From Parasynechococcus marenigrum WH 8102 (GTDB taxonomy: Bacteria > Cyanobacteriota > Cyanobacteriia > PCC-6307 > Cyanobiaceae): DNA of 32,000 nt. Shown here one piece after another: positions 1,520 through 22,896 of the stretch. The translations under genes and the position numbers were made by a program. A model generated the notes under the pieces. The model worked only from the letters and a program-made list of their open reading frames with translations, searched no databases and had not been told where the DNA came from. The stretch's first letter is position 1. Every line of letters starts with the position of its first letter. The DNA is taken from assembly GCF_000195975.1 (NCBI RefSeq), contig NC_005070.1:1500001-1532000 (forward strand), given 5' to 3'.

Positions 1520-1906
1520 ATGACCCGCAAGCGCGTAACCGCTAGCGAGAAGAAACAACGCCATGCATGGGCGATACGTCAGATCGACAAAGGCGTCGGC
1601 TTCTCCGAGCTTGCGACCCTTGTGGCCGAAACATGGGGGTGTTCACGTCGACAAGCCCGTCGTGTCGTAGCTGATGCCCACAAAGAGTGGATGGAGATTG
1701 CCTTCGGAGCTGAGGAGATCGATCAGCGTGACCTGCTGATGCAAAGCGTCGCCCGCCTGGAGCGCACTGCGCGTAAGGCGGAAGCAAGCGGCAACTTCGC
1801 CTGTGCGATCGGCGCGGTTCAGCTGATGAATCGAATGATGGCCTCAGGTGCTGATCAGACGGGATGCCGCGGTCATCGCCGCAAAGGGCACTACTACCGG
1901 CACTGA
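1520..1906 (+). CDS. HTH DNA-binding protein, diverged paralogue of 12271..12654 and 20810..21193
   Basis: 128 aa. Same architecture as the other two copies: basic N-terminus, HTH-like segment (GFSELATLVAETWGCSRRQARRVV versus SFRTVAALVSGKYGVSERTAQRDL), KAE..G motif, and a His/Arg/Gly/Tyr-rich tail. Confidence 0.6.
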   Translation: MTRKRVTASEKKQRHAWAIRQIDKGVGFSELATLVAETWGCSRRQARRVVADAHKEWMEIAFGAEEIDQRDLLMQSVARLERTARKAEASGNFACAIGAVQLMNRMMASGADQTGCRGHRRKGHYYRH

Positions 1907-3532: not shown

Positions 3533-5344
3533 ATGCCACAAATGGCAACTCCACCAATTGTTGGCTTTCACAAGGGTCACGGGACTGATGGTGAGGAGCA
3601 TGTACATGAGGGAATAGAAACATTAGACACCGGATTTATTGGAATTGGACATACGCAAGACTCCCCAGAATCGGAGACTTTGGACATACTTGTCATCAAG
3701 ACTGATTCTAATGGTGAAGAAATCTGGAGTAAAAAGATTGGAGCGATTGGGGAATGGGATGTAGGCATTGCGATTGCCGAATCCAGCGATTCATTCTATG
3801 CAGTCGGAGGGAAAAGCCTAGGTGGCATTCAAAAACCAGTGATTATAAAGATGGCAAAAGGTGGTGAAATATTATGGGAAAAATTATTTGATACGCCCGG
3901 AGTTGGGATGCTGAGAGGCATTGATATCACTCAAAACGGGGAAGTAGCTGTAACCGGCTTCCATGAAGGAGACGAAGAGGGATTTGTATTTATATCGGAA
4001 GGAACTGGATTCGCAGCAGTCTTGGACAGAGATGGAGTGGTTGTCTGGCAAGAGGATTATGAACAAATACCTCAAGGAACAAAAATATTGAGCACCGATA
4101 ATAATGGCTACGCCATCTTATCAACTGTCTGGAATGAAGAAGAAAACAACGCGGCAATTTTAAAGATAGGAAATAGTGGAGAAGTGCAATGGTTTGAGAG
4201 CTATGGCGGTGGTAACAACCAAGCATTCGATTTCGAATATATTACGGAAGAAGGTTATGTCTTGGCTGGTCATACGAATTCTATCTCAGCAGTGAATTGG
4301 GATGGCTTGATGACCAAGGTCGATACAAGTGGAAATCTTGTTTGGCGAAAAACAGTAGGGCAGCCAAGAGGGTACGACTCACTGTATATCCATGATGAGT
4401 TCTACGGAATTGTTGTTGATTCTGATGGATCATATGTAATGGCTGGCGGAACAGGTGATGAATCTGCTATGTACGAAGAAGGCGGTCACCCATCAGGGCC
4501 CTCGGGAGAATGGAAGTCTTACTTGGTTAAAATCAATCCAAATGGACAGACTATATGGGAGGCAGTTTATGGAGAAAGCAATCAAGGGCACAATGCGGCA
4601 GAATTTTTGGATACCACTATTGACGGAGGCTTCATACTTTTCAATGACTCCGATACAGCTTCAATATCAACCAAAGAGCCAAACAATTTCGGATTCATGA
4701 AGCTTGATCATAATGCAAGCCATTTATCTGATGCCAACCAAGACCCATTACCTGAAACGGTAACTAACCCAACTCCTGAACCGGTTCCAACCCCTACTCC
4801 AGAACCAACGCCTGCAACTGTTCTTACACCCACGCCAGAACCACCGCCAACGCCATCTCTAGAACTACCACCATCGCCATTATCACCACCAATTGATGGT
4901 GACTTCTCATCTCTACCACCCGACTTATGGCTCTCGCAAACTCACGACGTCATCATTCAATCAGTTCGTGGTAAGGGTAAATTAAAGGGTAAGAAAGGTG
5001 CAGATGCCTTCTATTTTAATTCCTTTGAGGCATTTACTAAAAAGTCTGCTGACAAGATCATTGGATTTAAAGCATCGCAAGACACAATTGCCGTAAGTCC
5101 CGATGCGTTTCCTGCATTGGAAGGTGTCTCCGCTATCAGGTTTGCATCGACCAAGAGCAAAAAGGAATTAAAGCAATTATCCAAGGAGGATTACGATTTT
5201 GTCTATTTTGAGAAAAAAGGTCGGCTCTACTTCGATGGAAATGGCGCAGAGAAGAACTGGGGAAACAGTGATGAAGGAGGTCTTGTGGCAATCCTGAAAG
5301 GAAAACCTGAGCTAACTTCATTTGACATCAAATTGCTGGCTTGA
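3533..5344 (+). CDS. large secreted/surface repeat protein: SBBP-like beta-propeller repeats, Pro/Thr linker, shared C-terminal module
   Basis: 603 aa with no N-terminal signal peptide. Recurrent D..ivK.d.nGe..W.k..G.......gi....dG.y...G blades are followed by a PT-rich linker (4740-4930). The last ~133 aa (4946-5344) are near-identical at nucleotide level to 9361-9762 and 11847-12248. Confidence 0.85.
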   Translation: MPQMATPPIVGFHKGHGTDGEEHVHEGIETLDTGFIGIGHTQDSPESETLDILVIKTDSNGEEIWSKKIGAIGEWDVGIAIAESSDSFYAVGGKSLGGIQKPVIIKMAKGGEILWEKLFDTPGVGMLRGIDITQNGEVAVTGFHEGDEEGFVFISEGTGFAAVLDRDGVVVWQEDYEQIPQGTKILSTDNNGYAILSTVWNEEENNAAILKIGNSGEVQWFESYGGGNNQAFDFEYITEEGYVLAGHTNSISAVNWDGLMTKVDTSGNLVWRKTVGQPRGYDSLYIHDEFYGIVVDSDGSYVMAGGTGDESAMYEEGGHPSGPSGEWKSYLVKINPNGQTIWEAVYGESNQGHNAAEFLDTTIDGGFILFNDSDTASISTKEPNNFGFMKLDHNASHLSDANQDPLPETVTNPTPEPVPTPTPEPTPATVLTPTPEPPPTPSLELPPSPLSPPIDGDFSSLPPDLWLSQTHDVIIQSVRGKGKLKGKKGADAFYFNSFEAFTKKSADKIIGFKASQDTIAVSPDAFPALEGVSAIRFASTKSKKELKQLSKEDYDFVYFEKKGRLYFDGNGAEKNWGNSDEGGLVAILKGKPELTSFDIKLLA

Positions 5345-5452
5345 GAAAGCAAGGTAGTGGAAGATATCTTTGGCAATGACCTTGACTCCTTTAGTGGATA
5401 TGGCGTTGAGATTATGGAAATCTGATCTCTATCAATAATTTGTCTTTTCACC

Positions 5453-5481
5453 AGCCCCGTCAGCAATGGCGGGGCTTTTAT
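5453..5481 (+). terminator. intrinsic terminator of 3533..5344
   Basis: AGCCCCG - 10-nt loop - CGGGGCT followed by TTTTAT. A homologous hairpin follows the second large gene at 9788. Confidence 0.55.
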
Positions 5482-5530
5482 GCAAGGGCAGAGCGGGGAA
5501 CACTTCAGGCAATCACGTCTGACCAACGCC

Positions 5531-5718
5531 TCAAGACAACCGCATCGCCCTGTTCCTAAAGGCTGAACTGTTTGCAGCACTGCAAGCCAAACGCACTGTG
5601 AGTTTGTTGAACCATCTCGGATCCGAATTGTGTCGCCATCTCCAATAGAAAGAATTGTTGAGCTCGACGCGGGTAATGACGAAAGTGCGACCAATAAAAT
5701 AGTGGCTCTTTGTATCAC
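5531..5718 (-). pseudogene. thermonuclease (SNase-like) 5' fragment with a frameshift
   Basis: The fragment reads signal-peptide-like MIQRATILLVALSSLPA, then ILSIGDGDTIRIRDG. The expected KLTVRLAC continues in another frame (ORF 5531..5725) and then stops. Compare the intact nuclease at 21210..21797. Confidence 0.5.
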
Positions 5719-5745
5719 ATGACATACAAATACTTGAATTAGTAT

Positions 5746-5798
5746 AAACCCATTGCGCTGCAGACGATCTCAGGGATTTGTCCCGTCAAAAGTGCCGG
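5746..5798 (+). repeat. dispersed ~53-nt repeat, copy 3
   Basis: aaacccattgcgctgcagacgatctcagggatttgtcccgtcaaaagtgccgg aligns with the copy at 1442..1495. Confidence 0.65.
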
Positions 5799-5805
5799 AC
5801 AACGA

Positions 5806-5946
5806 CTACCCGACTAAGCCTTTTCCATGGCGAACGATCGAGGTCACTTCGTTAGTGGTGTCATTCACCACCATGTACGTACACATCTTTGCCTTGGGCT
5901 TGGCGCGGGCACAGATGTAAGCTCTGAACTCTGTTTTGTAAGACAT
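5806..5946 (-). CDS. 46-aa hypothetical protein
   Basis: MSYKTEFRAYICARAKPKAKMCTYMVVNDTTNEVTSIVRHGKGLVG*. AAGGAG lies immediately 5' of the ATG, which is very short spacing. No homology recognised. Confidence 0.3.
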   Translation of the reverse strand: MSYKTEFRAYICARAKPKAKMCTYMVVNDTTNEVTSIVRHGKGLVG

Positions 5947-6070
5947 CTCCTTAACCCAACGATCGGGAGCTTCTTGCTGGAGGACGCAATACAAAAGTCA
6001 CTTGATATAGACACTATTGATAGCAACAGCTACTCATCTGTAACGCCCAGTTTTAGTTTCCACACAGTTC

Positions 6071-6092
6071 ACACCCGGACATGTCCGGGTGT
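6071..6092. repeat. perfect 22-bp palindrome ACACCCGGACA|TGTCCGGGTGT
   Basis: The first 11 nt are the exact reverse complement of the last 11. No U-tract on either strand. Confidence 0.8.
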
Positions 6093-6144
6093 CATCAGGA
6101 TAAAACATCCTTTTCGCTTGTCGGGCATTGCATTACCGGCCACC

Positions 6145-6237
6145 TCAACAGACAAAGGCTTCAAGCCACACAAAAGTCACCACTGATGCTTTTCCAATCG
6201 CCATCGACAACCACTGGTCACGAAGTATGCGCGTCAT
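6145..6237 (-). CDS. 30-aa hydrophobic peptide, paralogue of 22897..22989
   Basis: [30 protein letters not shown]. Same length and frame as the inverted duplicate at 22897..22989. Differences between the two include 4 synonymous codons. Confidence 0.4.
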
Positions 6238-6238
6238 C

Positions 6239-6280
6239 TCAGCAGTGCAGCTGACCCAATAAATCGCTACAGAGCCTCAT
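6239..6280 (-). CDS. 13-aa mini-ORF preceding the 30-aa peptide (leader-like)
   Basis: [13 protein letters not shown]. The stop lies 1 nt upstream of the next ATG. The equivalent ORF MMFSNDLLGHLHR* sits at 22854..22895. Confidence 0.25.
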
Positions 6281-6297
6281 GGCAAGCGCATGTAGCC

Positions 6298-9200
6298 ATG
6301 CGCAGAGAAAGTGGCAAACTGACTAAAGCTAGTGGCATGGCGATGCAAGGCAAGCTCCTCGAATCGGTACTGGTCCAAGTCCCGACGCAACCTCAGCAAA
6401 AAAATCGGACTGACCTTGAGGCAGAAACCACACTCATAGACAGAGCAACCCCTAGACGAACTCACCAAGAATGGGCGAACAGATCAGCTTTTGCTGCAAT
6501 TAATGCGGACGGGTCCGTTACATCCTGGGGTTCAACATTTGAGGGAGGTGATAGCAGTAATGTAGCCGATCAGATAAGTTCTGGTGTAGTAAGAATCCAC
6601 TCCACTAGACAAGCATTTGCTGCCATCAAGGATGATGGATCTGTAGTCGCATGGGGAAGATCTACCGATGGCGGAAACAGTTCAGCCGTTGCAGATCAAC
6701 TTGCCGGCGAGCATAATAATCAGCCTTCTGTTATTGACATTTCCTCGACGTTAGGAGCATTTGCGGCAATAAGAAATGATGGATCTGTAGTCACATGGGG
6801 ATCGTCTTTCAGAGGGGGAAACAGCAACGGCGTTACCGAGCATATTTCAAGCGGAGTCACCGATATCTTCAGTACACAATCTGCTTTTGCTGCTCTAAAG
6901 CGAGATGGTTCTGTGATTACGTGGGGCGATAGCGATTACGGCGGGGACAGCTCAGCTGTTGCAAGTGACTTGACGGGGGGCGTTGTCAAAATCTTTGCCA
7001 ATGACTACGCTTTTTCTGCCTTAAAGCAAGACGGTTCCGTTGTTACCTGGGGTCTTGACGCTTATGGAGGAAGAAGCCTTGAGGTAAGCGATTCCTTAAA
7101 CAATGTAAGTCACATCTATACAACAGACAGTGCATTCGCCGCACTCAAGGAAGATGGATCAGTCGTTTGCTGGGGACTAGACCTTTATGGTGGCAATCCG
7201 AGCGAAAGTATTGTTCAATTATTATCATCAGGTGTTTCATCCATATCCTCTACTCGTTATGCATTCGCCGCTCTTAAAGACGATGGATCAGTCATAACCT
7301 GGGACGACGTATCAGGCGGAGATAGCTCAGGTGTCTCAGAACAACTTCAATCAGGTGTGACAAGCTTATTTGCCACCGAACAAGCATTTGCTGCTTTGAA
7401 AAACGACGGCTCTGTTGTGAGCTGGGGGTCGATTTATTATGGCGGTGACAGCACTGATTTGCAATCAGAGCTCTCTAGTGGAGTCCATACAATCGTACCG
7501 AACGGCTATGCATTTTCTGCACTAAAGAATGATGGTTCTGTGCTAACTTGGGGCGGAGGAAATCAGGGCGGAGATATCAGTAGTGTTGCCGATGAATTAA
7601 GCGATGGTGTGACAGATATTTATGGCAATGAAAAAGCATTTGTTGCCATTAAAAATGATGGTAGTGTCGTGTCATGGGGTGCACCCAATCGCGGTGGAGA
7701 TTCAAGTGAAGCAAATTTCAGAGGCGGAAGTCCATCTATTGCGACACCATTAAGCGAATTAAATATCTCAGGCAAACCTATTGATGATTTTATCGATACT
7801 ATTCCTGTTCCTACCCCCACGCCTTCACCTGACACGACTACTTCACTAGGCCCAACGCCAACACCGGAATCAACTCCAATACCTTCTGCAACGCCAACAC
7901 CGGAATCAACTCCAATACCTTCTGCAACGCCAACACCGGAATCAACTCCAATACCTTCTGCAACGCCAACACCGGAATCAGCTCCAGTACCTTCTGCAAC
8001 GCCAACACCAGAATCAACTCCAGCACCTTCTGCAACTCCTGATCCGTCTATAGACCAAGAACTTATAGATGATTTCGCAAATAATTCTTCTACAAGCGGG
8101 GTTGTTGTTATAGGGGATGTCTTGTATGGCAATTTAGAATCCATATACGATGATGATTGGTTTAAAGTTTCATTAACCAAAGGAAGTGTTTATCGATTTG
8201 ATCTTGAGGGTATACAGTTGAATGATCCACGAATGACTCTGTATGGGTCTAATTTAAAGGAATTAACTTATGACGACGATGGAGGGTCTGGATATGACTC
8301 ACTCATTGAATTCACAGCAACGTCGAGTGATAACTATTTTATTAGTGCAAAAAGTTGGGGGGAAACTGGCACTTATACATTAAAGGCTACAGATATCACA
8401 CCAGCACCTTCTGCAACGCCAGCACCGGAACCAACTCCAGTACCTTCTGCAACGCCAACACCAGAATCTACTCCAGCACCTTCTGCAACTCCGGATCCGT
8501 CTATAGACCAAGAACTTATAGATGATTTCGCAAATAATTCTTCTACAAGCGGGGTTGTTGTTATAGGGGGTGTCGTGAATGGCAACTTAGAATCCATATA
8601 CGATGATGATTGGTTTAAAGTTTCGTTAACCAAAGGAAGTGTTTATCGATTTGATCTTGAGGGAATACAGTTGAATGATCCGCGAATGAGTCTGCATGGG
8701 TCTAATTTACAGGAATTAACTTATGACGACGATGGAGGGTCTGGATATGATTCACTCATTGAATTTACAGCAACGTCGAGTGATAACTATTTTATTAGTG
8801 CAAAAAGTTGGGGGGAAACTGGCACCTATGCATTAAAAGCTACAGATATAACACCAGCACCTTCTGCAACCCCAACACCGGAACCAACTCCATTACCTTC
8901 TGCAACTCCTGATCCATCTATAGACAAAGAACTTATAGATGATTTCGCAAATAATTCTTCTACAAGCGGGGTTGTTGTTATAGGGGGTGTCGTGAATGGC
9001 AACTTAGAATCCATATACGATGATGATTGGTTTAAAGTTTCATTAACCAAAGGAAGTGTTTATCGATTTGATCTTGAGGGAATACAGTTGAATGATCCGC
9101 GAATGAGTCTGCATGGGTCTAATTTACAGGAATTAACTTATGACGACGATGGAGGGTCTGGATATGATTCCCTCATTGAATTTACAGCAACGTCGAGTGA

Positions 9201-9762
9201 TGACTATTTTATTAGTGCAAAAAGTTGGGGGGAAACTGGCACCTATGCATTAAAAGCTACAGATATAACACCAGCACCTTCTGCAACCCCAACACCGGAA
9301 CCAACTCCATTACCTTCTGCAACGCCAACACCAGAATCAACTCCTGAGCCTGAGCCTTACGACGTCATCATTCAATCAGTTCGTGGTAAGGGTAAATTAA
9401 AGGGGACGAAAGTTGCAGATGCCTTCACTTTCGATAGCTTTGAACCATTCACAAAGAAAGCTGCTGACAAGATCATTGGATTTGAAGCATCGCAAGGCGA
9501 CACAATTGCCGTAAGTCCCGATGCGTTCCCTGCATTGGTAGGTGTCTCCGCTATCAGGTTTGCATCGACTAGGAGTAAGAAGGAATTCAAGCAAATGTCC
9601 AAGGAAGATTACGATTTTGTCTATTTTGAGAAAAAAGGTCGGCTCTACTTCGATGGCAATGGTTCTGCGAAGAACTGGGGGAACAGTGGTGAAGGAGGTC
9701 TCGTGGCAATCCTGAAAGGAAAGCCTGATCTAACTGCTGAGGACTTAACACTGCTTGCTTGA
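6298..9762 (+). CDS. giant secreted/surface protein: 10 RCC1-like repeats, PT/PS linker, 3 tandem PPC (pre-peptidase C-terminal-like) domains, shared C-terminal module
   Basis: 1154-aa ORF. The start is uncertain (ATG at 6298, 6337 or 6343). Ten AFAALKxDGSVxxWG....GGDSS units are followed by ([12 protein letters not shown])x5. Three domains with [14 protein letters not shown]...DP...LY......[10 protein letters not shown]...F.A....YFI....WGETGTY.LKA follow. The C-terminal module is 9361-9762. Confidence 0.85.
7855..8037 (+). repeat. 36-nt tandem repeat x5 encoding [12 protein letters not shown]
   Basis: acgccaacaccggaatcaactccaataccttctgca is repeated head to tail. The first three units are identical and the last two diverge slightly. 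Confidence 0.85.
8041..9330 (+). repeat. three tandem ~417-453 nt units (PPC-like domain plus PT linker)
   Basis: Units start at 8041, 8494 and 8911 (gatccgtctatagacc...). Units 2 and 3 are almost identical by eye. Confidence 0.85.
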
Positions 9763-9787
9763 TAAAACTTCAAAACTGAACACATTC

Positions 9788-9816
9788 TCCCGTCAGCCAT
9801 GGCGGGGTTTCTTATT
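9788..9816 (+). terminator. intrinsic terminator of 6298..9762
   Basis: tCCCG - tcagccatgg - CGGGg followed by TTTCTTATT. Homologous to the hairpin at 5453. Confidence 0.45.
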
Positions 9817-9839
9817 GCATCGGCAGAGCGGGTAACACT

Positions 9840-9950
9840 CAGGACAGTTACGGCTGAACCATGACCCGCGATACCTTCATCGCACTGTTCCTACTGAGTG
9901 AACTGGTTGCTGTCACACCTGAATCGTTACGAGCTGCATACAAGGAGCGC
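9840..9950 (-). pseudogene. heavily decayed thermonuclease remnant (homologous to 5531-5610)
   Basis: catcgcactgttcctactgagtgaactggttgc aligns with catcgccctgttcctaaaggctgaactgtttgc downstream of the first large gene. No intact frame. Confidence 0.4.
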
Positions 9951-9973
9951 GATCTGCTCTCGACCTGTTTATT

Positions 9974-9981
9974 TGTATAAT
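9974..9981 (+). promoter_or_regulatory. possible extended -10 box (TGTATAAT) upstream of 10182..12248
   Basis: Exact TGnTATAAT in an AT-rich intergenic region ~200 nt upstream of the start. No clear -35. Confidence 0.25.
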
Positions 9982-10181
9982 TTTACAGCTAGGACTCTTG
10001 GTTAAACTATTGCGATACTGATGTTTTTCGTGGATCAACGAATGCAATGATTGACAACTGATCTCCGATTCCTGATAGAGATATCTATTTTTTCCAAAGT
10101 TAAATGCATAATAAGTTTTTCGGAGAGGCAATAGTTTTTTGCGATGAATTGTTCTACAATTATTTAAGAAGGAGAGTCACT

Positions 10182-12248
10182 ATGGCCAAAGCCCTCATAG
10201 CTGCATCGCCAGACCGCACCAGTCGTGAATGGCGTAATGCAGCTGCTTTTGCTGCACTTACTGAAACAGGGGAAATCCGTGCATGGGGAATCCCAACTTC
10301 AGGTGGCCTTTTGTCGATTGATGCAGCAGCGCTTAGTGGAGTACGCCAGATCTATTCGACTGAATCAGCATTCGCAGCATTGACTGATCAAGGGCAAGTA
10401 GTTGCGTGGGGTGGCAATGGAGGAGATGCCAGCGCAGTTCAGGATCAGTTGGAAAGTGGTATTCGATCAATTGCATCCACTACAGAGGCTTTTGCTGCTC
10501 TCGATATTAATGGCAAGGTCACAACATGGGGTACTGCGAAATTCGGTGGAGATACAAGCGACATAGCAGATGTACTCAATGAAGGTGTCGTTGATATATT
10601 TTCTACTGATCATGCATTTGCTGCACTTAAAGAAGATGGCACTGTGGTGGCCTGGGGTGACGAGTTTTCTGGTGGATTTAGGGGGAAATCTGGAATAGGA
10701 GTTGCACAAAATGTTCGAGAGATACGTTCTACATCTGGAGCTTTTGCGGCATTATTAAATGACGATACAGTGCAGACATGGGGCTATTGGAATCATGGCG
10801 GCCTTCCCGAGGGGGTAAGTGCTCTTGCATTGGCATCCGGACAAGTAAAAGACATTTTCAGTAATGAGTTCACATTTGCTGCACTTTTGAAAGATGGCAC
10901 GGTAATTGCTTGGGGGAGTCCATCATCTGGAGGTGATACAAGTTCGGTTGACGAGCAATTGATGGATGTGCAGACAATTGTTGGGAATCGAAATGCATTT
11001 GCAGCAATTACGGGTAGTGGAAAAGTGGTTAGTTGGGGCATCTCGGGGGACAATTACGTAGATCAGGGTGATGCCTTGGGGGCGGGTGTGATTAACGTCG
11101 TTGCATCTGATCAGGCTTTTGCTGCGCTCAAAAGCGATGGCTCTGTCGTGACATGGGGTTCCAGTCAATACGGTGGAGACAGTTCTGCTGTTGCTAGTGA
11201 TTTGATCAGTGATGTTGTTGAACTGACCGCTTCTGAGTCCGCGTTCGCTGCGCGAAAGAGTAATGGGAAGGTTGTAACTTGGGGTGACAATGAGGCCGGT
11301 GGGGATAGCTCCTCTGTTCAGCCACAGCTACTGACTGGCGTCGAAAAGGTCTACGCCAACCAGCTTGCATTCGCGGCCTTGAAATCGGATGGATCAGTTG
11401 TGACATGGGGAGATCAGGAATATGGCGGTAACTCACGATTTGCGACTGGTGGTGATCTAGACGATATTGTGAATATTGCTGATGTTTTTACAGATACTTT
11501 CATTGGTGATAATTTCATCGATACCGTTCCGGTTCCAACACCAACACCGGTTCCAACACCAACACCGGTTCCAACACCAACACCGGATCCAACACCAACG
11601 CCGGATCCAACACCAACACCGGATCCAACACCAACACCGGATCCAACACCAACACCGGATCCAACACCAACACCGGATCCAACACCAACACCGGATCCAA
11701 CACCAACACCGGATCCAACACCAACACCGGATCCAACACCAACACCGGATCCAACACCAACACCGGATCCAACACCAACACCGGATCCAACACCAACACC
11801 GGATCCAACACCAACACCGGATCCAACACCGACGTCAGAGCCTTATGACGGCATCATTCAATCAGTTCGTGGTAAGGGCAAATTAAAGGGAACGAAAGTT
11901 GCCGATGCCTTCACTTTCGATTCCTTTGAAGCATTTACTAAAAAGTCTGCTGACAAGATCATTGGATTTAATGCATCGCAAGGCGACACAATTGCCGTTA
12001 GTCCAAATGCGTTCCCTGCATTGACAGGTGCCTCCGCTATCAGCTTTGCATCGACTAGGAACAAGAAGGAGTTCAAGCAATTGTCCAAGGAGGATTACGA
12101 CTTTGTATATTTTGAGAAAAAAGGTCGCCTCTACTTCGATGGAAATGGCGCAGAGAAGAACTGGGGGAACAGCAGTGAGGGAGGTCTTGTGGCAATCCTG
12201 AAAGGAAAGCCTGAGCTAACTGCTGAAGACGTAACACTGTTGGCTTGA
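10182..12248 (+). CDS. large secreted/surface protein: 10 RCC1-like repeats, (TPTPDP)n linker, shared C-terminal module
   Basis: The preferred start is ATG 10182, preceded by AAGGAGAG at good spacing; the track's 10104 start adds 26 odd residues. The N-terminus [26 protein letters not shown] parallels 6298..9762. The C-terminal module is 11847-12248. No signal peptide. Confidence 0.85.
11527..11836 (+). repeat. 18-nt tandem repeat x17 (3 x ccaacaccaacaccggtt, then 14 x ccaacaccaacaccggat) encoding (TPTPVP)3(TPTPDP)14
   Basis: Nearly perfect head-to-tail units counted directly. Every Asp unit contains GGATCC. Confidence 0.9.
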
Positions 12249-12270
12249 CAAAGCTTTAATGCTGATCACC

Positions 12271-12654
12271 ATGGCAAGGACTAGCGCGAAAGAACGTTTA
12301 GCCCGTAGGGAACATGCACTGGCGTTGCTTGCTGATGGGAACAGCTTCAGAACGGTTGCGGCGCTTGTGTCGGGAAAGTACGGGGTTTCTGAAAGAACTG
12401 CTCAACGGGACTTGACTTGGGCGAGAAACAGACTGGTAGGGGAACTGAGTTCGACGGAAGTCAAAGAGCTGTTGGCATGGTTCTGCCATAGAACTCAGAC
12501 CATCGTTCAGAAAGCCGAGAAAGCAGGTGCTTACGGTGCTGCTGTTGCTGGCATGAACCTGATTTACCAAGCGGTGCTGTCACGCGAGCTGGACAGTATT
12601 CACAGCAACCGGCATCGGGGCTATGGCAACCGACACGGGAATTACAAGGGTTAA
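12271..12654 (+). CDS. HTH DNA-binding protein (copy A of a near-identical inverted pair)
   Basis: By homology with 20810..21193 the start is ATG 12271 (MARTSAKERL), not 12259. HTH-like segment: NSFRTVAALVSGKYGVSERTAQRDL. It starts 22 nt after the stop of the third large gene. Confidence 0.7.
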   Translation: MARTSAKERLARREHALALLADGNSFRTVAALVSGKYGVSERTAQRDLTWARNRLVGELSSTEVKELLAWFCHRTQTIVQKAEKAGAYGAAVAGMNLIYQAVLSRELDSIHSNRHRGYGNRHGNYKG

Positions 12655-13970: not shown

Positions 13971-15110
13971 CTAGGCGGCTTCCGGGTGTAGGTCAAGGGG
14001 TGACAAGGTATCCCCCTCCAAAGTTGTCCTACCTGCTCCAGTAATCCGTTCGACAGCCTCAATCAAGCCAGCCTCATCAATCCACTGTCCATAACTGGCG
14101 TGATGCTCCTGTGGAGTGTGCCCGAGCAGCGCAGCAGCATCCCGAATCGACAACGGGCGGTCATATGACTTGTGCATCCGATAAGCACAGCCGTGCCCCA
14201 GGCTGTATGGCGTCAACCCTGAGCGGGTTGCTTCCAGGCCCTGCCAAAACCTGAAGCGTTGGAGCTGCTGCCGAATCTCATCACCAACAGGCTTGAAGCC
14301 TTTCTCCTCAGCCTCGTTGATGCGGTTCAAAACGGTCTGAGGGAAGCGAATCGTGCCAGTGCGCCACAGCATCACCAGACGCTCTCCTTCACCTTCTCTG
14401 CCTGGCACGTCGAAGGGCAACACCAACCTGTTCTTCTGTTTCTTGCCTCTAGTGGCTTTGTTCCGCTTGCCACCGGGTCGGACTTTCAAATGCCCGTCCT
14501 CCCAAATCAGCTGACTGACTTCAAGGGGGCGCAGACCGTAGATGCCAATAATCCCCACCAGCAACATCAGGCTGGTCCTGTCGGCATCCCTAAGCGCGTC
14601 GAGCAGATTGCCCAGATCGTTGGGCATCACAGGTGGCGTCAACTTGTCCTCAGTGGGTCTGTCGTCAGTACCGATCAACTCCCGCAGGTCATCTGTTTCC
14701 AGAGGCTTCCAACGGCTGTCGTAACCAAATTCCTTGATCGCGTGCCGCAGCAAGCCGCGAACGTTGTTCATCTGTGTGATGCGCCCTGATTTTCCTGGTG
14801 GGCAGTTCTTGAAATGCTGCCGAGCGAAGGAGCGCATCAGGTCAGCGCCACTTTGGGGACGTGGCTTCTTCGCCAAGGTTTGCTTCACCCGTTCCATGTG
14901 ACGGGTGAGGTCCTTCATCGTTGTTGAGCGGCTGTTCTGCCGCCTTCTCTCGATGAAGTCATAGATGACGGCCTGCCAGCCGCTGTCTTCGTCATCCACC
15001 GACTTGCTGACCGTGGGAGTCGCACCGTGCTGCTTCTGTAGCAGCTGAAACGCCTTTGCGAGGGACTCCTCCCCCTTCTCCATACGCTCCCTGATCTGGC
15101 AAACCACCAA
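13971..15110 (-). CDS. int: tyrosine recombinase/integrase paralogue 1 (catalytic Arg II replaced by Gly; possibly inactive)
   Basis: Box I is GLRPLEVSQL. Box II is PYSLGHGCAYR...LLGHT...HHASYGQW, versus PYSLRHGFAWR...LMGHT...HHRHYGAW in integrase 2. The start is ambiguous (TTG 15110, GTG 15107 or ATG 15083). Confidence 0.8.
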   Translation of the reverse strand: MVVCQIRERMEKGEESLAKAFQLLQKQHGATPTVSKSVDDEDSGWQAVIYDFIERRRQNSRSTTMKDLTRHMERVKQTLAKKPRPQSGADLMRSFARQHFKNCPPGKSGRITQMNNVRGLLRHAIKEFGYDSRWKPLETDDLRELIGTDDRPTEDKLTPPVMPNDLGNLLDALRDADRTSLMLLVGIIGIYGLRPLEVSQLIWEDGHLKVRPGGKRNKATRGKKQKNRLVLPFDVPGREGEGERLVMLWRTGTIRFPQTVLNRINEAEEKGFKPVGDEIRQQLQRFRFWQGLEATRSGLTPYSLGHGCAYRMHKSYDRPLSIRDAAALLGHTPQEHHASYGQWIDEAGLIEAVERITGAGRTTLEGDTLSPLDLHPEAA

Positions 15111-15420: not shown

Positions 15421-15453
15421 CAAGAAACCTGTCTAGGACAGTGTTTTGAAGAA

Positions 15454-15499
15454 TGGAGCCAAGGAGACTCGAACTCCTGACCCCCTGCATGCCATGCAG
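15454..15499 (-). repeat. 46-nt copy of the tRNA-Ala(GGC) 3' part (distal att repeat)
   Basis: tggagccaaggagactcgaactcctgaccccctgcatgccatgcag is identical to 24848-24893. Similarity ends exactly where the 5' part of the tRNA should continue. Confidence 0.9.
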
Positions 15500-15581
15500 T
15501 ACGTTGCTCGCTAAATAACAACGGTCAAATCGCCAGAAATACTAGGCCAGAACCCAGTTCACATCTGGATTCAGGCGAAGG

Positions 15582-15648
15582 TCGGCGCACAAGACTTATG
15601 GGTTCTTGTTGCTTCTTGGAGCGTTTTGGCGCACAATTTGGCGCACAA
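15582..15648 (+). promoter_or_regulatory. three copies of the TTTGGCGCACAA motif (1 + tandem pair); candidate arm-type integrase sites or iterons
   Basis: tcggcgcacaag at 15582. Exact tandem tttggcgcacaa tttggcgcacaa at 15625-15648. A mirror triplet lies at 24709-24762 in the same orientation. Confidence 0.5.
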
Positions 15649-16928
15649 GCCCTGACCACCTGCATCTCTTGGCCAAAGTCATCTGGTCCGACAACTTGCG
15701 GCAGGTGCTCAAGCGTGAGCACGGCAAAGGTTGGTCAGTCAGAGACCACCGTGGCCGGGTACAGCTGACGCGGATTTTTGAAGACCGTTCACGCAGTGCC
15801 GTTTACCTGCCATTGACTTGGACAGCCGATAACGCCACATCGATCCTCAACACGGTTGCTGCAATTCACGACCTGATGGATTCGCGCAAAGTCAGCCTGA
15901 AAGAAGCTGCCAGGTTGAACACTCAGGCATTGGCAGAGCCAGCCAAAAGCGCCAAGACGGTGGCTGACAAAGGTTGGGATGCAGTTGCTGCCGACTTCCT
16001 CAAGAGCCGTGGTGACAGGCGCAGCAGCACTCTCAGAGACCTCAAGCTGCGGGTTGAACGTGCTGTTGCAGTCATCAACCAGAAGCCCAAACCACGCGAC
16101 GGTATGAGCGTGTTGGAGGCATACGCCGCCGCCTACTTCAAGGAAATGGCACCCGGTGGTCAGGGGCGTAAACGAAATCTGAACGACGTCGTGGCATTCC
16201 TCCAATTCGCTGTTGATCGTTGCGGTGCACCAGACCGTTTCCTGCCACCACCAAAAGACCGCATCAATGAATTGATCGGCACCAGCCCAACATCAACAAC
16301 GGAACGACTGACACCACCAATCAAGGCAGACCAGTTCACTGCATTGTTGGATGCACTGGAAGCTGACGGCCGGCATGACCTCAAGCTGGCAGTGGCGTTG
16401 GTTGGCTATCTCGGGTTGCGGCCTGCAGAGCTGGCAGTCCTGCGTGTTGGTGATGACGAAAAGGCAAGGGTCGGCAGCATCAAGCGCAACATCCAAACGA
16501 TGCAGCAGGCAGACAAGCCGCCACGGTTGGTGATGCCACTTGAGATTGACGGCAGAAACAACGAAGGTGCCCGGGCCATAGCACAGTTCGCTAGTGGACT
16601 GGTGAAGTTGCCGAAAGCACTACGAAAACAGATTGATTTAGTTGAGGAGAAAGGACGTTTTCAAGACGTTGGTGCTGAATTTGCCCAGCAACTTTCACGC
16701 TGCAAGCATTGGCAAGCCATGTTCAAAGCAGACCCGCGCATCACCCCGTACAGCTTGCGCCATGGATTTGCTTGGCGGGCAACAGTGGGCCAAAACAAGA
16801 TTCCGGTAAGAACTACTGCCGCATTGATGGGGCATACAATGCAAGTGCACCACAGGCATTATGGCGCTTGGGTTGACGAAGCAGCCATTGAAGAAGCAGT
16901 TGGCATGCACAACGCTGTCGTCGCTTGA
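15606..16928 (+). CDS. int: tyrosine recombinase/integrase paralogue 2 (catalytic residues intact)
   Basis: GLRPAELAVL (Arg I), YSLRHGFAWR (Arg II), LMGHT, HHRHYGAW (Tyr). The true start is probably downstream of the 12-mer repeats, for example GTG 15705 (VLKREHGKGW). Confidence 0.85.
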   Translation: MLLLGAFWRTIWRTSPDHLHLLAKVIWSDNLRQVLKREHGKGWSVRDHRGRVQLTRIFEDRSRSAVYLPLTWTADNATSILNTVAAIHDLMDSRKVSLKEAARLNTQALAEPAKSAKTVADKGWDAVAADFLKSRGDRRSSTLRDLKLRVERAVAVINQKPKPRDGMSVLEAYAAAYFKEMAPGGQGRKRNLNDVVAFLQFAVDRCGAPDRFLPPPKDRINELIGTSPTSTTERLTPPIKADQFTALLDALEADGRHDLKLAVALVGYLGLRPAELAVLRVGDDEKARVGSIKRNIQTMQQADKPPRLVMPLEIDGRNNEGARAIAQFASGLVKLPKALRKQIDLVEEKGRFQDVGAEFAQQLSRCKHWQAMFKADPRITPYSLRHGFAWRATVGQNKIPVRTTAALMGHTMQVHHRHYGAWVDEAAIEEAVGMHNAVVA

Positions 16929-16962
16929 ACTGCGTTTACAAGATTGCCAACTACTTTTCTCG

Positions 16963-17364
16963 TCAAGTCTTTTGATTTGGTTCTGACGCTTTTGATTTGT
17001 CTTCAGGCGGCTTTTTGCCTGGTGTCGAAGCTTTTTCGCTAACTACGGTTGGCTGTTCACTTGGAGATGCATCTTCTTTGGTAGAGCCTGGGGGATTATT
17101 GCTTATTTCTGAATCTTCGATCTTTGTTGTAGATATTTTTTCTTCGGATGCAGGTGGTTCTTTTTTAACCTCAGTTGCGGGTTTTTCTTTTTTAACCTCA
17201 GTTGCAGGTGTTTCTTTCTTAACTACTGGCTTTTTCTTGGGTTTCAGCTTGCTTGTATCTAAAGACTTTTCGCCAAACGACTTAAATCCTAAAAAGATTA
17301 GCCCACCCACTACTGGGATAGAAGTAATACCGCCTATCGCAATTTCAAATTCGCTTAAGGCCAT
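16963..17364 (-). CDS. membrane-anchored Lys/Glu/Pro-rich low-complexity protein
   Basis: The likely start is MALSEFEIAIGGITSIPVVGGLIFLGF (a TM span). A KKETPATEVKKEKPATEVKKE tail follows, containing a 27-nt tandem duplication at 17161-17214. AT-rich. Confidence 0.45.
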   Translation of the reverse strand: MALSEFEIAIGGITSIPVVGGLIFLGFKSFGEKSLDTSKLKPKKKPVVKKETPATEVKKEKPATEVKKEPPASEEKISTTKIEDSEISNNPPGSTKEDASPSEQPTVVSEKASTPGKKPPEDKSKASEPNQKT

Positions 17365-17545
17365 GATCCATGTTCGATGTTCCTCAAATTTAGCATTATG
17401 GTTGCAAGTTCCCGCAAGTTTCGAGTATAAACTGAGGACCTCAGAGGTCGCCCCTGTCATTTCAAAGGCAGGGTTCCCCTCCTAGCGACTGCGACACCTA
17501 CATGTGTCTGCGGGGACGGAGCCAAGATCACCCCGATACGACGGA

Positions 17546-17806
17546 ATGGCTCGTAACGCAGACAATCGCAAAGGGAGAGGTCGGCCTGTCCGAATGCCTC
17601 AGAACCTTGCCGTCAAAGATCGGCAAGTGGTTCTGAAGTTGGCGGAACAGATGTCCCGCATCTGCAGCAACGCGACTGCAGAGCAGCTGGCAGAACTGGC
17701 TGCTGACCCTGATATTGCAACTGCTCCGCGTTTCTTCAAAGAAGCCATGAGGTCGTTCGGGACACCGCTCCCGACCGATGCAACACGAATGGTTCAAAAC
17801 GTCTGA
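17546..17806 (+). CDS. hypothetical protein with N-terminal basic GRGRP (AT-hook-like) segment
   Basis: MARNADNRKGRGRPVRMPQ.... It overlaps the next gene by 29 nt. Same strand as the replication module. Confidence 0.4.
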   Translation: MARNADNRKGRGRPVRMPQNLAVKDRQVVLKLAEQMSRICSNATAEQLAELAADPDIATAPRFFKEAMRSFGTPLPTDATRMVQNV

Positions 17807-18014
17807 GGCTGCAAGGCTCTGCGGCGTTTCTAGTTACTGGCTGAAGGAAAACCGCGACATCAGCGGTGGCTTCCTTGTGATCGACAAGCACTGGATTCCT
17901 GGCATCACACCAACGTCATCAATTCGATGGCACGTGCCATTGGTGCTGGAAGCGATGCGATACCACGGCATGAATCGCATCAAAGGCGATCAGATGTTGG
18001 AGGCCGTGCAGTGA
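17778..18014 (+). CDS. Xis/AlpA-like HTH protein (paralogue of 13531..13779)
   Basis: MQHEWFKTSEAARLCGVSSYWLKENRDISGGFLVIDKHW. Its stop TGA overlaps the next GTG start (GTGA). Confidence 0.6.
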   Translation: MQHEWFKTSEAARLCGVSSYWLKENRDISGGFLVIDKHWIPGITPTSSIRWHVPLVLEAMRYHGMNRIKGDQMLEAVQ

Positions 18015-18235
18015 TTAAGCGCGCCACCTTCGATGACAACGGCAAAAAAGTGCCGGTGAAACTCACTGTTCGTGAGCAGATGCGTCATGCAGCAGCAATG
18101 GCTGACGACTGCAGATCAAAGCTGCAATGGCACCTGACTCCTACTGCGCGGGAGATGTACGAAGACTCCCTGCTTCGGCACACGCAGGACTGGATCCGAC
18201 TCAAAAAACAAGCAGACCAACAAGCAGAAAAATGA
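18011..18235 (+). CDS. 74-aa hypothetical protein (translationally coupled)
   Basis: The GTG at 18011 overlaps the preceding stop. Its own stop overlaps the ATG of the primase gene (ATGA at 18232-18235). Confidence 0.45.
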   Translation: MIKRATFDDNGKKVPVKLTVREQMRHAAAMADDCRSKLQWHLTPTAREMYEDSLLRHTQDWIRLKKQADQQAEK

Positions 18236-20664: not shown

Positions 20665-20784
20665 GGATCTTTCACACACTTCTTACTCCTCGTGATACTG
20701 AATGACCTACTGCAACCAATGCAGTTGGTCACTCAATTCAAACCAGCTACCACAGCTGGACTTCTACACATTCTTTCCCACCAA

Positions 20785-20807
20785 TGTGCGCCAATTAGTG
20801 CGCCAGA
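20785..20807 (-). promoter_or_regulatory. tandem pair of the GGCGCAC 12-mer between the helicase and HTH genes
   Basis: The reverse complement reads tctggcgcacta attggcgcaca. It lies 3 nt from the stop of 20810..21193. Confidence 0.35.
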
Positions 20808-20809
20808 TG

Positions 20810-21193: not shown

Positions 21194-21209
21194 AGCTCAA
21201 TAAAAGTAA

Positions 21210-21797: not shown

Positions 21798-21866
21798 CCC
21801 AATAGCAAGCGACTCCAACACATGTCCCCTACGGGCAAAGCATTCTTTCGCGGTGGTGCGTGCCAT
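21798..21866 (-). pseudogene. 5' remnant (23 codons) of an HTH-gene copy fused in frame to the nuclease ORF
   Basis: MARTTAKECFARRGHVLESLAIG is encoded by atggcacgcaccaccgcgaaagaatgctttgcccgtagggg.... This is homologous but not identical to the first ~70 nt of 20810..21193. Confidence 0.6.
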
Positions 21867-22895: not shown

Positions 22896-22896
22896 G

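What the first reader, a model, noticed from the sequence alone, without database searches (positions are those of the whole stretch)
3533..12248. Three large signal-peptide-less repeat proteins share one ~133-aa C-terminal module
Seen: 4946-5344, 9361-9762 and 11847-12248 encode (D/Y)D(V/G)[36 protein letters not shown](G)[71 protein letters not shown]. Identical nucleotide runs of 42 and 50 nt occur between copies.

Upstream, the proteins differ. The first has SBBP-like propeller repeats. The second and third have RCC1-like repeats. The second additionally has three PPC-like domains. All have Pro/Thr linkers and none has an N-terminal signal peptide.

The module follows the pattern G..G.D.F.F....aD.I.gF....D.I.v...F...........yf.....LyyD.nG......g..vA.L.g.P.L...D. 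I associate this pattern with the segment that follows RTX repeats in type I secretion substrates. No canonical GGxGxD nonapeptides are present.

Inference: the module is a common C-terminal secretion or anchoring signal recombined onto different passenger domains. The copies also provide substrates for homologous recombination and cassette exchange.
Basis: partly seen in the sequence, partly recalled or inferred. Interest (0 to 1): 0.7.

Follow-up and report, generated by a model that had tools for sequence, protein, structure and literature searches.

The report
Shared RTX-type C-terminal export module
Three neighbouring genes in a marine Synechococcus genomic island encode acidic proteins without signal peptides that all end in the same 133-residue domain, a degenerate form of the end-piece of calcium-binding RTX proteins exported by type I secretion; it is most likely a portable export tag, but no exporter has been identified.

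Summary
ORFs 3533-5344, 6298-9762 and 10104-12248 (+) end in a 132-133 aa module that is 80-89% identical between copies, on unrelated passengers (a beta-propeller, and RCC1-like repeats with or without three PPC domains). The window is about 99% identical to Synechococcus sp. A18-46.1, which has the same three genes.

The module belongs to a large, uncurated family (1,245 clusters at 50% identity). It is almost always at the extreme C-terminus. Twenty-two of 81 sampled members carry canonical RTX repeats. A family profile hits AlgE R-modules (E=1.6e-6) and serralysins (3e-5). A confident AlphaFold model (pLDDT 89) matches only RTX beta-roll C-terminal domains among its top 25 PDB hits. Module positions 6-23 are two RTX nonapeptides in register that have lost most Gly/Asp ligands.

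The proteins fit the type I secretion substrate profile: no signal peptide, pI 4.2-4.5, 0-1 Cys, extracellular-type domains.

Module shuffling is supported. Synonymous divergence is 0.31-0.33 in the modules and saturated in the passengers. An 80%-identical passenger elsewhere carries a module only 38-41% identical. Ongoing gene conversion is not supported.

No ABC/MFP/TolC genes lie within 10 kb of the module gene in 11 related loci, or anywhere in the window, so export is inferred, not shown. Verdict: a new variant of a known kind, of moderate interest.

The parts
3533..5344 (+). ORF1, 603 aa (the A18-46.1 gene call starts at window 3542): acidic beta-propeller-like passenger, Pro/Thr linker, C-terminal module
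   Evidence: Lepto_SBBP_lipo E=1.2e-8, aa 48-351; pI 4.5, 0 Cys
4730..4930 (+). ORF1 Pro/Thr-rich linker (aa 400-466)
   Evidence: sequence
4946..5344 (+). Module copy 1 (132 aa plus stop); RTX-register segment reads [18 protein letters not shown]; tail SFDIKLLA
   Evidence: HMM E=9e-54
6298..9762 (+). ORF2, 1154 aa: 10 RCC1-like blades, long PT linker, three PPC cassettes, module. Its orthologue QNJ14448.1 is annotated 'peptidase' in A18-46.1 and has two PPC cassettes
6490..7716 (+). ORF2 RCC1-like repeat region (10 blade motifs, period about 42 aa)
   Evidence: (family D3)
8068..9267 (+). Three tandem PPC-domain cassettes with PT spacers (8068-8397, 8521-8850, 8938-9267), 94-97% nt identical to each other
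   Evidence: PPC E=5e-17, 3 stretches; D4
9361..9762 (+). Module copy 2 (133 aa plus stop); identical in protein sequence to the module of A18-46.1 QNJ14448.1
9788..9817 (+). Intrinsic-terminator-like hairpin plus T-run, 26 nt after the ORF2 stop; suggests separate transcription units
10104..12248 (+). ORF3, 714 aa as the maximal ORF (likely start 10182, giving 688 aa): 10 RCC1-like blades, (PTPTPD)n linker, module
11502..11864 (+). ORF3 linker: 18-nt tandem repeat encoding PTPTP(V/D), 97% identical copies; 234 nt longer than in A18-46.1
   Evidence: (D1)
11847..12248 (+). Module copy 3 (133 aa plus stop)
13971..15110 (-). Integrase-like ORF flanking the three-gene array. No Pfam hit, but it shares motifs with the integrase at 15606-16928. 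It marks the array as cargo of an older integrated island

Best explanation
The 133-aa module is a degenerate RTX terminal unit. It comprises two vestigial Ca-binding nonapeptides, the beta-roll-capping fold, and an acidic-then-hydrophobic extreme C-terminus. It is homologous to the C-terminal end of serralysin-type proteases and AlgE R-modules.

It most likely acts as an uncleaved, portable C-terminal tag. [quoted passage not shown] After C-terminus-first export it would fold into a compact cap outside the cell. The Pro/Thr linkers would then hold the passenger domains (RCC1-like or other beta-propellers, PPC domains) away from it, as free or surface-associated exoproteins.

Shown here: homology and fold of the module, its strict C-terminal position, its association with RTX repeats and extracellular-type passengers across the family, and its shuffling between passengers.

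Inferred: recognition by a T1SS, actual export, and any calcium dependence.
For: 1. Family membership. The window modules hit the family profile at E about 1e-54 to 1e-56. The family has 1,245 clusters at 50% identity with E<=1e-3.

2. Link to RTX.
- 22 of 81 full-length members carry HemolysinCabind repeats, best E=3e-47.
- In many members a canonical GGxGxDxU nonapeptide lies inside the module, at the position where the window reads G(T/K)K(V/G)ADAF.
- The indexed search grades continuously into proteins named 'calcium-binding protein [Nostoc]', 'Ca2+-binding RTX toxin-like protein' and 'serralysin'.

3. Sequence homology to solved T1SS substrates. The family profile hits the AlgE4 R-module at 1.6e-6, AlgE6 R1-R3 at 5e-6 to 1.5e-5, psychrophilic and Serratia serralysins at 3e-5 to 8e-5, and AprA at 3e-3. 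Distant members hit NCBIfam Zn_serralysin at 3e-8 and SMc04171 at 9e-10.

4. Fold. The AF2 model has pLDDT 89.4 and pTM 0.84. The top 25 Foldseek PDB hits are all RTX beta-roll C-terminal domains, with probability 0.9-1.0 and TMq 0.52-0.58 over about 130 columns for the serralysins.

5. Position. 194 of 219 full modules end within 6 residues of the C-terminus. The tail is acidic at position -6 (62%) and then 68-84% hydrophobic. From memory, this resembles the protease-type T1SS signal (Ghigo and Wandersman 1994).

6. Substrate profile. The proteins have no N-terminal hydrophobic segment, pI 4.2-4.5, 0-1 Cys and 10-12% Gly. These match the criteria used for cyanobacterial T1SS substrates (PMC11424642).

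7. Passengers across the family are extracellular types: S8, M10 and M12 peptidases, cadherin, LRR_5, Calx-beta and PPC.

8. Literature. RCC1-like ('alpha-tubulin suppressor') proteins, one of them haemolysin-like, were detected in the Synechococcus WH8102 exoproteome (PMC4949707). T1SS is predicted in 75% of cyanobacterial genomes and is usually split over two loci (PMC4793230).
Against: - No ABC, MFP or OMF gene is in the 32-kb window, or within 10 kb of the module gene in 11 related loci: L004, L005, L007, L009, L010, L011, L012-L015 and, on its short contig, L008.
- The window's proteins lack tandem RTX repeats, the feature thought to keep T1SS substrates unfolded and to ratchet export. 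The two vestigial nonapeptides have lost most Gly/Asp ligands.
- Curated T1SS or RTX models do not reach threshold on the window modules: Peptidase_M10_C 14.8 bits against a 20.7 cutoff, and no TIGR03661 hit.
- Foldseek E-values are modest (3.6e-3 at best) and TM is about 0.55.
- Large pre-folded beta-propellers would be awkward T1SS cargo.
- No experimental datum exists for these particular proteins.
Confidence: 0.6

Rival explanations
1. The module is mainly a cell-surface anchoring or retention domain. A basic domain (pI about 9) that may bridge calcium would tether very acidic passengers to the anionic outer membrane, LPS or S-layer. Export could go by T1SS or another route. Secretion targeting would then be secondary, or would reside only in the last few residues.
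For: - The module is basic (pI 8.8-9.3) while the passengers have pI about 4.1.
- RTX repeats of the Synechococcus S-layer protein SwmA are assumed to anchor it by calcium bridging to the outer membrane (PMC3034196).
- Long Pro/Thr linkers look like stalks that present domains away from a surface.
- Linker length and PPC copy number vary between near-identical strains, as expected of exposed surface proteins.
Against: - Homologous domains in serralysins and AlgE epimerases belong to freely released enzymes.
- The strict C-terminal position and the conserved acidic-hydrophobic tail are what a T1SS signal requires, and an anchor does not need them.
- From memory, known T1SS adhesins anchor through N-terminal retention modules, not through the C-terminus.
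- Most Ca ligands are lost.
Confidence: 0.15
2. The module is only a structural or ligand-binding beta-roll domain, like internal AlgE R-modules that bind polymer and calcium. It would carry no targeting information. The proteins would leave the cell by another 'non-classical' route such as vesicles, lysis or a pilus-dependent pathway.
For: - The best sequence hits are AlgE R-modules, most of which are internal non-signal modules.
- Some family members carry two or three tandem modules or half-modules, and 8 of 81 have the module more than 5 residues from the C-terminus (tails of 7-113 residues).
- No exporter is linked in any locus.
- Marine Synechococcus exoproteins without signal peptides are attributed to non-classical secretion in PMC4949707.
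Against: - 89% of full modules are terminal.
- The same module sits on non-homologous passengers, which argues for a passenger-independent role.
- Purifying selection is strong over the whole module including the tail (dN/dS 0.22-0.27).
Confidence: 0.12
3. The proteins are intracellular and the module is a non-secretory domain. Its resemblance to RTX termini would be a relic of ancestry.
For: RCC1-like propellers are cytoplasmic in many organisms. No exporter has been found. Ca-binding ligands are degenerate.
Against: - From established knowledge of PF04151, PPC domains are typical of secreted proteins, and Pro/Thr linkers typify exported proteins.
- The proteins have 0-1 Cys and pI about 4.3.
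- Family passengers are peptidases, cadherins and LRR_5.
- RCC1-like proteins were detected in a Synechococcus exoproteome (PMC4949707).
Confidence: 0.05
4. The high similarity of the three copies is maintained by ongoing gene conversion (concerted evolution). In that case the copies matter mainly as active recombination substrates.
For: Module dS (0.31-0.33) is far below passenger dS, which is saturated. Exact shared runs reach 50 nt. The raw runs test suggested a mosaic pattern (P=0.002).
Against: - After collapsing same-codon changes, the mosaic signal disappears (31 runs observed against 30.0 expected, P=0.68).
- All three pairs are equidistant, which suggests one old burst of duplication or shuffling.
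- dS 0.3 is not recent.
- A18-46.1 shows the same arrangement and the same copy-specific sequences, apart from one residue in copy 3.
Confidence: 0.08

Closest known systems
C-terminal domain of serralysin-family metalloproteases (Pfam PF08548 Peptidase_M10_C; PDB 1SAT, 1KAP, 1K7G, 1H71)
   Same: - Module residues 1-52 align to serralysin residues about 352-402 (the last RTX repeats plus the 'D.I.DF....D.I' strands), and both chains then run to the C-terminus.
- The whole-module fold match has probability about 1.0 and TMq 0.52-0.58.
- The acidic-hydrophobic extreme tail is shared (plus recalled knowledge).
- Neither has a signal peptide.
   Different: - Serralysins have 4-6 canonical Ca-binding nonapeptides. 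The window modules keep only two vestigial ones ([18 protein letters not shown]).
- Pfam score is 14.8 bits, below the 20.7 cutoff.
- The C-terminal 80 residues match no curated model.
- The module is joined to passengers by long Pro/Thr linkers rather than packed against a catalytic domain.
R-modules of Azotobacter AlgE mannuronan C-5 epimerases (PDB 2AGM, 2ML1-3)
   Same: They are the best sequence matches to the family profile (E=1.6e-6 to 1.5e-5). They are autonomous RTX beta-roll modules of about 150 aa with a capping region, found in T1SS-exported proteins.
   Different: R-modules are often internal and repeated, carry 4-6 canonical repeats, and bind alginate. The window module is single, terminal and nearly repeat-less.
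TIGR03661 type I secretion C-terminal target domain (VC_A0849 subclass)
   Same: The idea is the same: a conserved C-terminal domain marking T1SS substrates. Distant family members share the 'AD.ITDF...GDKI.LS' start (profile positions 1-18).
   Different: The best score is 16.4 bits against a 17.6 cutoff, and only in distant members. The window modules give no hit. This is a different family.
CyaA RTX block V with its C-terminal capping structure
   Same: A C-terminal cap that nucleates vectorial folding of the segment emerging first from the T1SS duct (PMC9120197, PMC5618222, seen). The window module would be essentially such a cap with one beta-roll turn.
   Different: CyaA did not appear among the sequence or fold hits. 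CyaA folding is strictly calcium-driven by many repeats.
SwmA and other RTX exoproteins of marine Synechococcus; RCC1-like ('alpha-tubulin suppressor') exoproteins of WH8102
   Same: The organism group is the same. These are surface or exoproteins without signal peptides, and RCC1-like proteins were detected extracellularly (PMC4949707, PMC3034196).
   Different: SwmA has Gly/Asp-rich repeats. Orthology of the WH8102 exoproteins to ORF2 and ORF3, or their possession of this module, could not be checked (one search gave no WH8102 accession).

Membership tests
RTX protein family (Pfam PF00353 HemolysinCabind) | Tandem GGxGxDxUx calcium-binding nonapeptides upstream of the C-terminus | tested here: not met
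   No HemolysinCabind hit at E<=1 in any of the three proteins. There are only isolated GGxGxD strings in PPC and RCC1 domains, plus two vestigial in-register nonapeptides at module positions 6-23. 22 of 81 family relatives do meet the criterion.
RTX protein family | C-terminal domain homologous to those of proven RTX/T1SS substrates | tested here: met
   Family profile against PDB: AlgE4 R-module 1.6e-6, serralysins 3e-5. The top 25 Foldseek hits are all RTX beta-roll C-terminal domains.
Pfam PF08548 Peptidase_M10_C | Score at or above the gathering threshold (20.7 bits) | tested here: not met
   Window module copy 1 scores 14.8 bits, E=0.025, covering residues 3-52 only. Distant members score 15-20 bits.
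NCBIfam TIGR03661 T1SS C-terminal target domain | Score at or above the 17.6-bit cutoff | tested here: not met
   No hit for the window modules. The best distant member scores 16.4 bits, on profile positions 1-18 only.
Type I secretion substrate (functional class) | Targeting information at the extreme, uncleaved C-terminus | tested here: met
   For position only: the module ends at the stop codon in all three genes, and within 6 residues of the end in 194 of 219 family members. The D/E-plus-hydrophobic tail is conserved. Cleavage and function were not tested.
Type I secretion substrate (functional class) | No N-terminal Sec/Tat signal peptide; acidic pI; few or no Cys | tested here: met
   Maximum KD15 of 0.93 or less in the first 60 aa, with upstream in-frame stops. 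pI 4.2-4.5 and 0-1 Cys. Criteria as in PMC11424642. No SignalP-type tool was available.
Type I secretion substrate (functional class) | Cognate ABC transporter, MFP and OMF present (often linked) | tested here: inconclusive
   None is in the window, and none within 10 kb of the module gene in 11 related loci. The rest of the genome could not be searched. T1SS loci are commonly unlinked to substrates and are present in 75% of cyanobacterial genomes (PMC4793230).
Type I secretion substrate (functional class) | Demonstrated export dependent on the T1SS | not testable with these tools
   Only indirect evidence: RCC1-like and haemolysin-like proteins in the WH8102 and WH7805 exoproteomes (PMC4949707).
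Tycheposon (for the neighbouring 9.35-kb element, noticed in passing) | tRNA-targeted integration with a flanking partial tRNA copy, an inward-facing tyrosine integrase at one end, and a small replication module | tested here: met
   - A 48-bp exact repeat, 15452-15499 = 24846-24893 (the 3' end of tRNA-Ala).
- Integrase at 15606-16928 (Phage_integrase, 1.4e-4), PriCT_2 and AAA_25 genes.
- The element is absent from A18-46.1, which has a single att site.
- Definition from bioRxiv 10.1101/2020.12.28.424599. Whether the integrase belongs to the lineage-specific clade was not tested.

The most novel reading that the evidence does not exclude
The module defines a distinct class of type I secretion substrates with almost no RTX repeats in marine picocyanobacteria. 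In this reading, a self-contained beta-roll cap that is largely calcium-independent (Gly/Asp ligands lost, net basic charge) suffices both to recruit the exporter and, by its charge, to hold very acidic passengers on the cell surface. It would be a swappable 'export and display cassette' that genomic islands and tycheposon-like elements attach to new surface-interaction domains. If so, it would explain many exoproteins without signal peptides that are currently called 'non-classical'.
Probability: 0.2. Interest if true: 0.65.

Novelty: new variant of a known kind. Interest (0 to 1): 0.45.

Why it matters
Marine Synechococcus and Prochlorococcus release many proteins that lack signal peptides, and the export route is largely unassigned (PMC4949707, PMC11424642).

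A recognisable, conserved 133-aa C-terminal module would be a practical sequence handle for this problem. It is absent from Pfam and NCBIfam, yet it is demonstrably related to RTX/T1SS termini and is found in more than 1,200 protein clusters. It could be used to:
- predict part of the picocyanobacterial secretome;
- re-annotate genes now called 'peptidase' or 'hypothetical';
- design export tags for cyanobacterial biotechnology.

The module's presence on hypervariable island-encoded proteins points to fast-evolving surface or exoproteins. Their linkers and domain cassettes change copy number between strains that are 99% identical. Such proteins may be relevant to grazer, phage or particle interactions. 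The idea is directly testable with one fusion construct and one exoproteome.

Tried and rejected
1. The first AF2 run, with a shallow 19-sequence alignment, gave pLDDT 41.6 and was discarded. It was redone with 51 diverse sequences.
3. Single-sequence and 3-sequence searches against Pfam, NCBIfam and PDB gave only sub-threshold hits. Significance came only with the diverse family profile.
4. Synteny with a T1SS was looked for in the window and around the module gene in 11 related loci. None was found.
5. Gene conversion among the three copies: the raw runs test looked significant, but this was an artefact of multi-nucleotide codon changes. Rejected.
6. Viral contigs: the A6 alignment was too diverse to derive patterns, and A4 found no relative. 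No phage link.
7. An attempt to tie ORF2 and ORF3 to the WH8102 exoproteins NP_897657.1 and NP_897658.1 failed. The close RCC1+module relatives are metagenomic and carry no NCBI accession.
8. The exact ORF3 product is not on record. The source was identified instead through the ORF2 orthologue.
9. The far boundary of the older island was sought, but no further att remnant exists in the window or in L011.
10. The idea that lysines specifically replace calcium ligands was dropped. K-rich x-positions occur family-wide, including in members with canonical Asp.
11. The review PMC8277102 did not contain the statement of the 'Dxxx' tail motif that I recalled, so that point is marked as memory.

Full report
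**1. The observation**

The + strand carries three large ORFs: 3533-5344 (603 aa), 6298-9762 (1154 aa) and 10104-12248 (714 aa).
- Their last 132-133 residues are 86-89% identical over the module proper, or 80-82% to copy 1 when 10 flank residues are included. 107 columns are invariant.
- The DNA is 86-90% identical. Similarity switches on at the first module codon and fades about 10 nt after the stop.
- A six-frame profile scan finds exactly these three copies in the window.
- The longest exact nucleotide runs are 50 and 46 nt (copies 1/2) and 41 and 38 nt (copies 1/3).

- Ten RCC1-like blades in each of ORF2 and ORF3 (Pfam RCC1_2 E=2e-28 and 1e-39).
- Three PPC domains in ORF2 (E=5e-17).
- Pro/Thr-rich linkers in all three.
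- A propeller-like region in ORF1 whose 'SBBP' label rests only on a sub-threshold NCBIfam hit (E=1.2e-8).

None has an N-terminal hydrophobic segment, and in-frame stops 3-114 nt upstream exclude longer N-termini. Isolated GGxGxD strings occur in the PPC domains and in one RCC1 blade, but there are no tandem nonapeptides.

**2. Where the window comes from**

- An RCC1+PPC protein from Synechococcus sp. A18-46.1 (QNJ14448.1, annotated 'peptidase') ends in a module identical to that of ORF2.
- The window is 98.9-99.7% identical to that chromosome (CP047955.1) over four collinear blocks. A18-46.1 has the same three genes, called at 600, 991 and 610 aa.
- The right end of the window is core genome (LexA, ArgF, FtsH; GC about 0.6).
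- The three genes lie in a lower-GC island (0.41-0.52) next to an integrase-like gene.

**3. What the module is**

*Initial searches.* Alone, the module gives only weak hits. They all point the same way: Peptidase_M10_C E=0.025, Zn_serralysin 3e-4, and AlgE R-modules at 0.03-0.5. The word-indexed search found 41 close relatives, all short metagenome fragments. Each has the module at its C-terminus, behind S8-peptidase, metalloprotease-like, cadherin-like or RCC1 tails.

*Family size and composition.* An exhaustive profile search found 1,245 clusters at 50% identity (560 at E<=1e-10), with the match nearly always ending at the last residue. Of 81 full-length representatives:
- 73 have the module within 5 residues of the end.
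- 22 carry canonical RTX repeats, HemolysinCabind best E=3e-47.
- The others carry LRR_5, cadherin, pentapeptide, Calx-beta, SBBP, or M10/M12 peptidase domains.

In many members a canonical nonapeptide falls inside the module.

*RTX register.* Family-wide, positions 6-24 read [S/G][G/V]xGx[D/G]xLx-G[G/T]x[G/V]ADxFxF. This is two RTX nonapeptides in register. The window's subgroup uses the non-ligand alternative at most Gly/Asp positions ([18 protein letters not shown]).

*Homology with the diverse profile.*
- PDB sequence hits become significant: AlgE4 R-module 1.6e-6, AlgE6 R1-R3 about 1e-5, serralysins 3e-5 to 8e-5, AprA 3e-3. They align module residues 1-52/80 to the last RTX repeats and following strands.
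- Distant members hit Zn_serralysin (3e-8), SMc04171 (9e-10) and HemolysinCabind (1.7e-6). TIGR03661 is hit only marginally.
- The indexed search with the same alignment grades into proteins named 'calcium-binding protein [Nostoc]', 'Ca2+-binding RTX toxin-like protein' and 'serralysin'.

*Fold.* An AlphaFold model built on 51 diverse sequences is confident (pLDDT 89.4, pTM 0.84). Its top 25 PDB matches are exclusively RTX beta-roll C-terminal domains: serralysins, PrtC, AprA, AlgE R-modules and CylK. MpAFP region V and a Pseudomonas lipase follow at ranks 26 and 28. For the serralysins the probability is 0.9-1.0 and TMq is 0.52-0.58 across about 130 columns.

*What is uncurated.* No curated model covers the C-terminal 80 or so residues.

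**4. How it most likely works**

RTX proteins are exported C-terminus-first by T1SS through an uncleaved C-terminal signal of about 60 residues. The terminal repeats and cap then fold outside the cell (PMC3034196; the capping-structure papers listed).

The window's proteins fit the substrate profile:
- no signal peptide;
- pI 4.2-4.5, 0-1 Cys and 10-12% Gly (criteria in PMC11424642);
- domain types typical of extracellular proteins;
- a conserved tail, acidic at -6 (62%) followed by 68-84% hydrophobic residues.

T1SS is predicted in 75% of cyanobacterial genomes and is usually encoded apart from other components (PMC4793230). RCC1-like ('alpha-tubulin suppressor') and haemolysin-like proteins have been found in Synechococcus exoproteomes (PMC4949707).

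I therefore consider a portable T1SS targeting-plus-capping module the best explanation (confidence 0.6).

What is missing is the exporter. No ABC/MFP/OMF gene lies in the window or within 10 kb of the module gene in 11 related loci. The rest of the genome could not be searched with these tools. The near-absence of Ca-binding repeats also departs from the classical mechanism.

The module is basic (pI 8.8-9.3) on passengers of pI about 4.1. This keeps a surface-anchoring role open as a rival or as an additional function.

**5. Shuffling and recombination**

Evidence for past shuffling:
- The same module sits on non-homologous passengers within the window and across the family.
- Pairwise synonymous divergence between module copies is 0.31-0.33 (dN/dS 0.22-0.27). 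The RCC1 passengers of ORF2 and ORF3 are saturated (dS about 3.7) and 44% identical in protein.
- The closest relatives of ORF3's passenger (80% identical) carry a different subtype of the module, only 38-41% identical and ending ...GFTE.

So modules have been exchanged among passengers.

Evidence against ongoing exchange among the three local copies:
- They are equidistant.
- An apparent mosaic pattern (P=0.002) disappears when same-codon changes are collapsed (P=0.68).
- A18-46.1 has the identical arrangement.

What does vary between the two strains is the number of PPC cassettes (3 against 2) and the length of ORF3's 18-nt-repeat linker (+234 nt).

A distant genome (L010) likewise has four adjacent module-bearing genes with different passengers.

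**6. Comparison with known families, and novelty**

- By fold and profile homology, the module is a relative of serralysin C-terminal domains and AlgE R-modules.
- It fails the curated thresholds of PF08548 and TIGR03661.
- The proteins fail the defining RTX criterion of tandem nonapeptides.
- The close subtype was found in only four of 185,579 species-representative genomes, all marine picocyanobacteria.
- Public records leave family members unnamed, or call them 'hypothetical', 'peptidase' or 'RCC1 family protein'.

I classify it as a new variant of a known kind: a repeat-poor, uncurated RTX-terminus module used as a portable C-terminal cassette. Interest is moderate (0.45). The mechanism is conventional if true, but the module gives a concrete, testable handle on export without signal peptides in marine picocyanobacteria.

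**7. Context noticed**

A 48-bp exact direct repeat (15452-15499 = 24846-24893, the 3' end of tRNA-Ala) bounds a 9.35-kb element.
- It carries an integrase, primase-like and AAA_25 genes, and an SNase/Excalibur nuclease.
- It is absent from A18-46.1.
- It fits the tycheposon definition.

The three module genes lie just beyond its distal att site, beside a second integrase-like gene. This is consistent with an older element having been pushed further into the island.

Noticed in passing
window 15452-24893: A 9.35-kb integrated element is bounded by a 48-bp exact direct repeat (15452-15499 = 24846-24893, the 3' end of tRNA-Ala(GGC) at 24847-24921, minus strand). It has an inward-facing tyrosine integrase (15606-16928), a PriCT_2 primase-like gene, AAA_25 genes and an SNase+Excalibur nuclease. 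It is absent from Synechococcus sp. A18-46.1, which has a single att site. It fits the published tycheposon definition.
   Followed up: yes
window 7953-9344 (ORF2): The PPC-domain cassette plus PT spacer is tandemly triplicated (periods 453 and 417 nt, 94-97% nt identity). The A18-46.1 orthologue, in a genome 99% identical, has only two copies. This is recent copy-number change inside a coding region.
   Followed up: partly
window 11502-11864 (ORF3): An 18-nt tandem repeat encodes (PTPTPD)n at about 97% identity between units. It is 234 nt (13 units) longer than in A18-46.1, so the linker is hypervariable. The repeat also produces spurious terminator-like hits on the minus strand.
   Followed up: partly
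window 12259-12654 (+), 20810-21193 (-), 1520-1906 (+): A small gene of unknown function (127-131 aa, no Pfam hit) lies just downstream of ORF3. An inverted copy 95% identical in nucleotides lies inside the tycheposon-like element, and a diverged paralogue lies at 1520-1906. This suggests the three-gene array sits in remnants of related integrative elements.
   Followed up: partly
window 19298-20664: The AAA_25 (helicase/RecA-like) domain is split across two overlapping ORFs: 19298-19984 covers profile positions 16-121 and 19978-20664 covers 148-194. This is probably a frameshifted or pseudogenised replication gene of the element.
   Followed up: no
window 6145-6286 vs 22989-22848: A 142-nt stretch just upstream of ORF2 is repeated, inverted and at 83% identity, inside the integrated element. 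Its function is unknown; it could be a shared regulatory or recombination sequence.
   Followed up: no
L010 7457-18511 (GCA_030545275.1): Four adjacent genes plus one fragment all end in a member of the same module family, behind different passengers (FG-GAP, Big_5, S8 peptidase with P_proprotein). No T1SS genes lie within 10 kb. The arrangement of a cluster of differently loaded module genes therefore recurs in a distant genome.
   Followed up: partly
window 4946-5341, 9361-9759, 11847-12245: Charge is strongly asymmetric: the module has pI 8.8-9.3, while the passengers have pI 4.05-4.19.
   Followed up: no
window 6298-9762: The public orthologue (QNJ14448.1) is annotated 'peptidase', apparently only because of its PPC domains. 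No peptidase catalytic domain was detected in ORF2.
   Followed up: partly
window 13971-15110 (-): A 379-aa ORF has no Pfam hit but shares clear sequence motifs with the integrase at 15606-16928 (for example ...LTPP...LLDAL... and TPYSL.HG). It is likely a divergent or decaying tyrosine recombinase of an older island. No matching att remnant was found in the window or in L011.
   Followed up: partly
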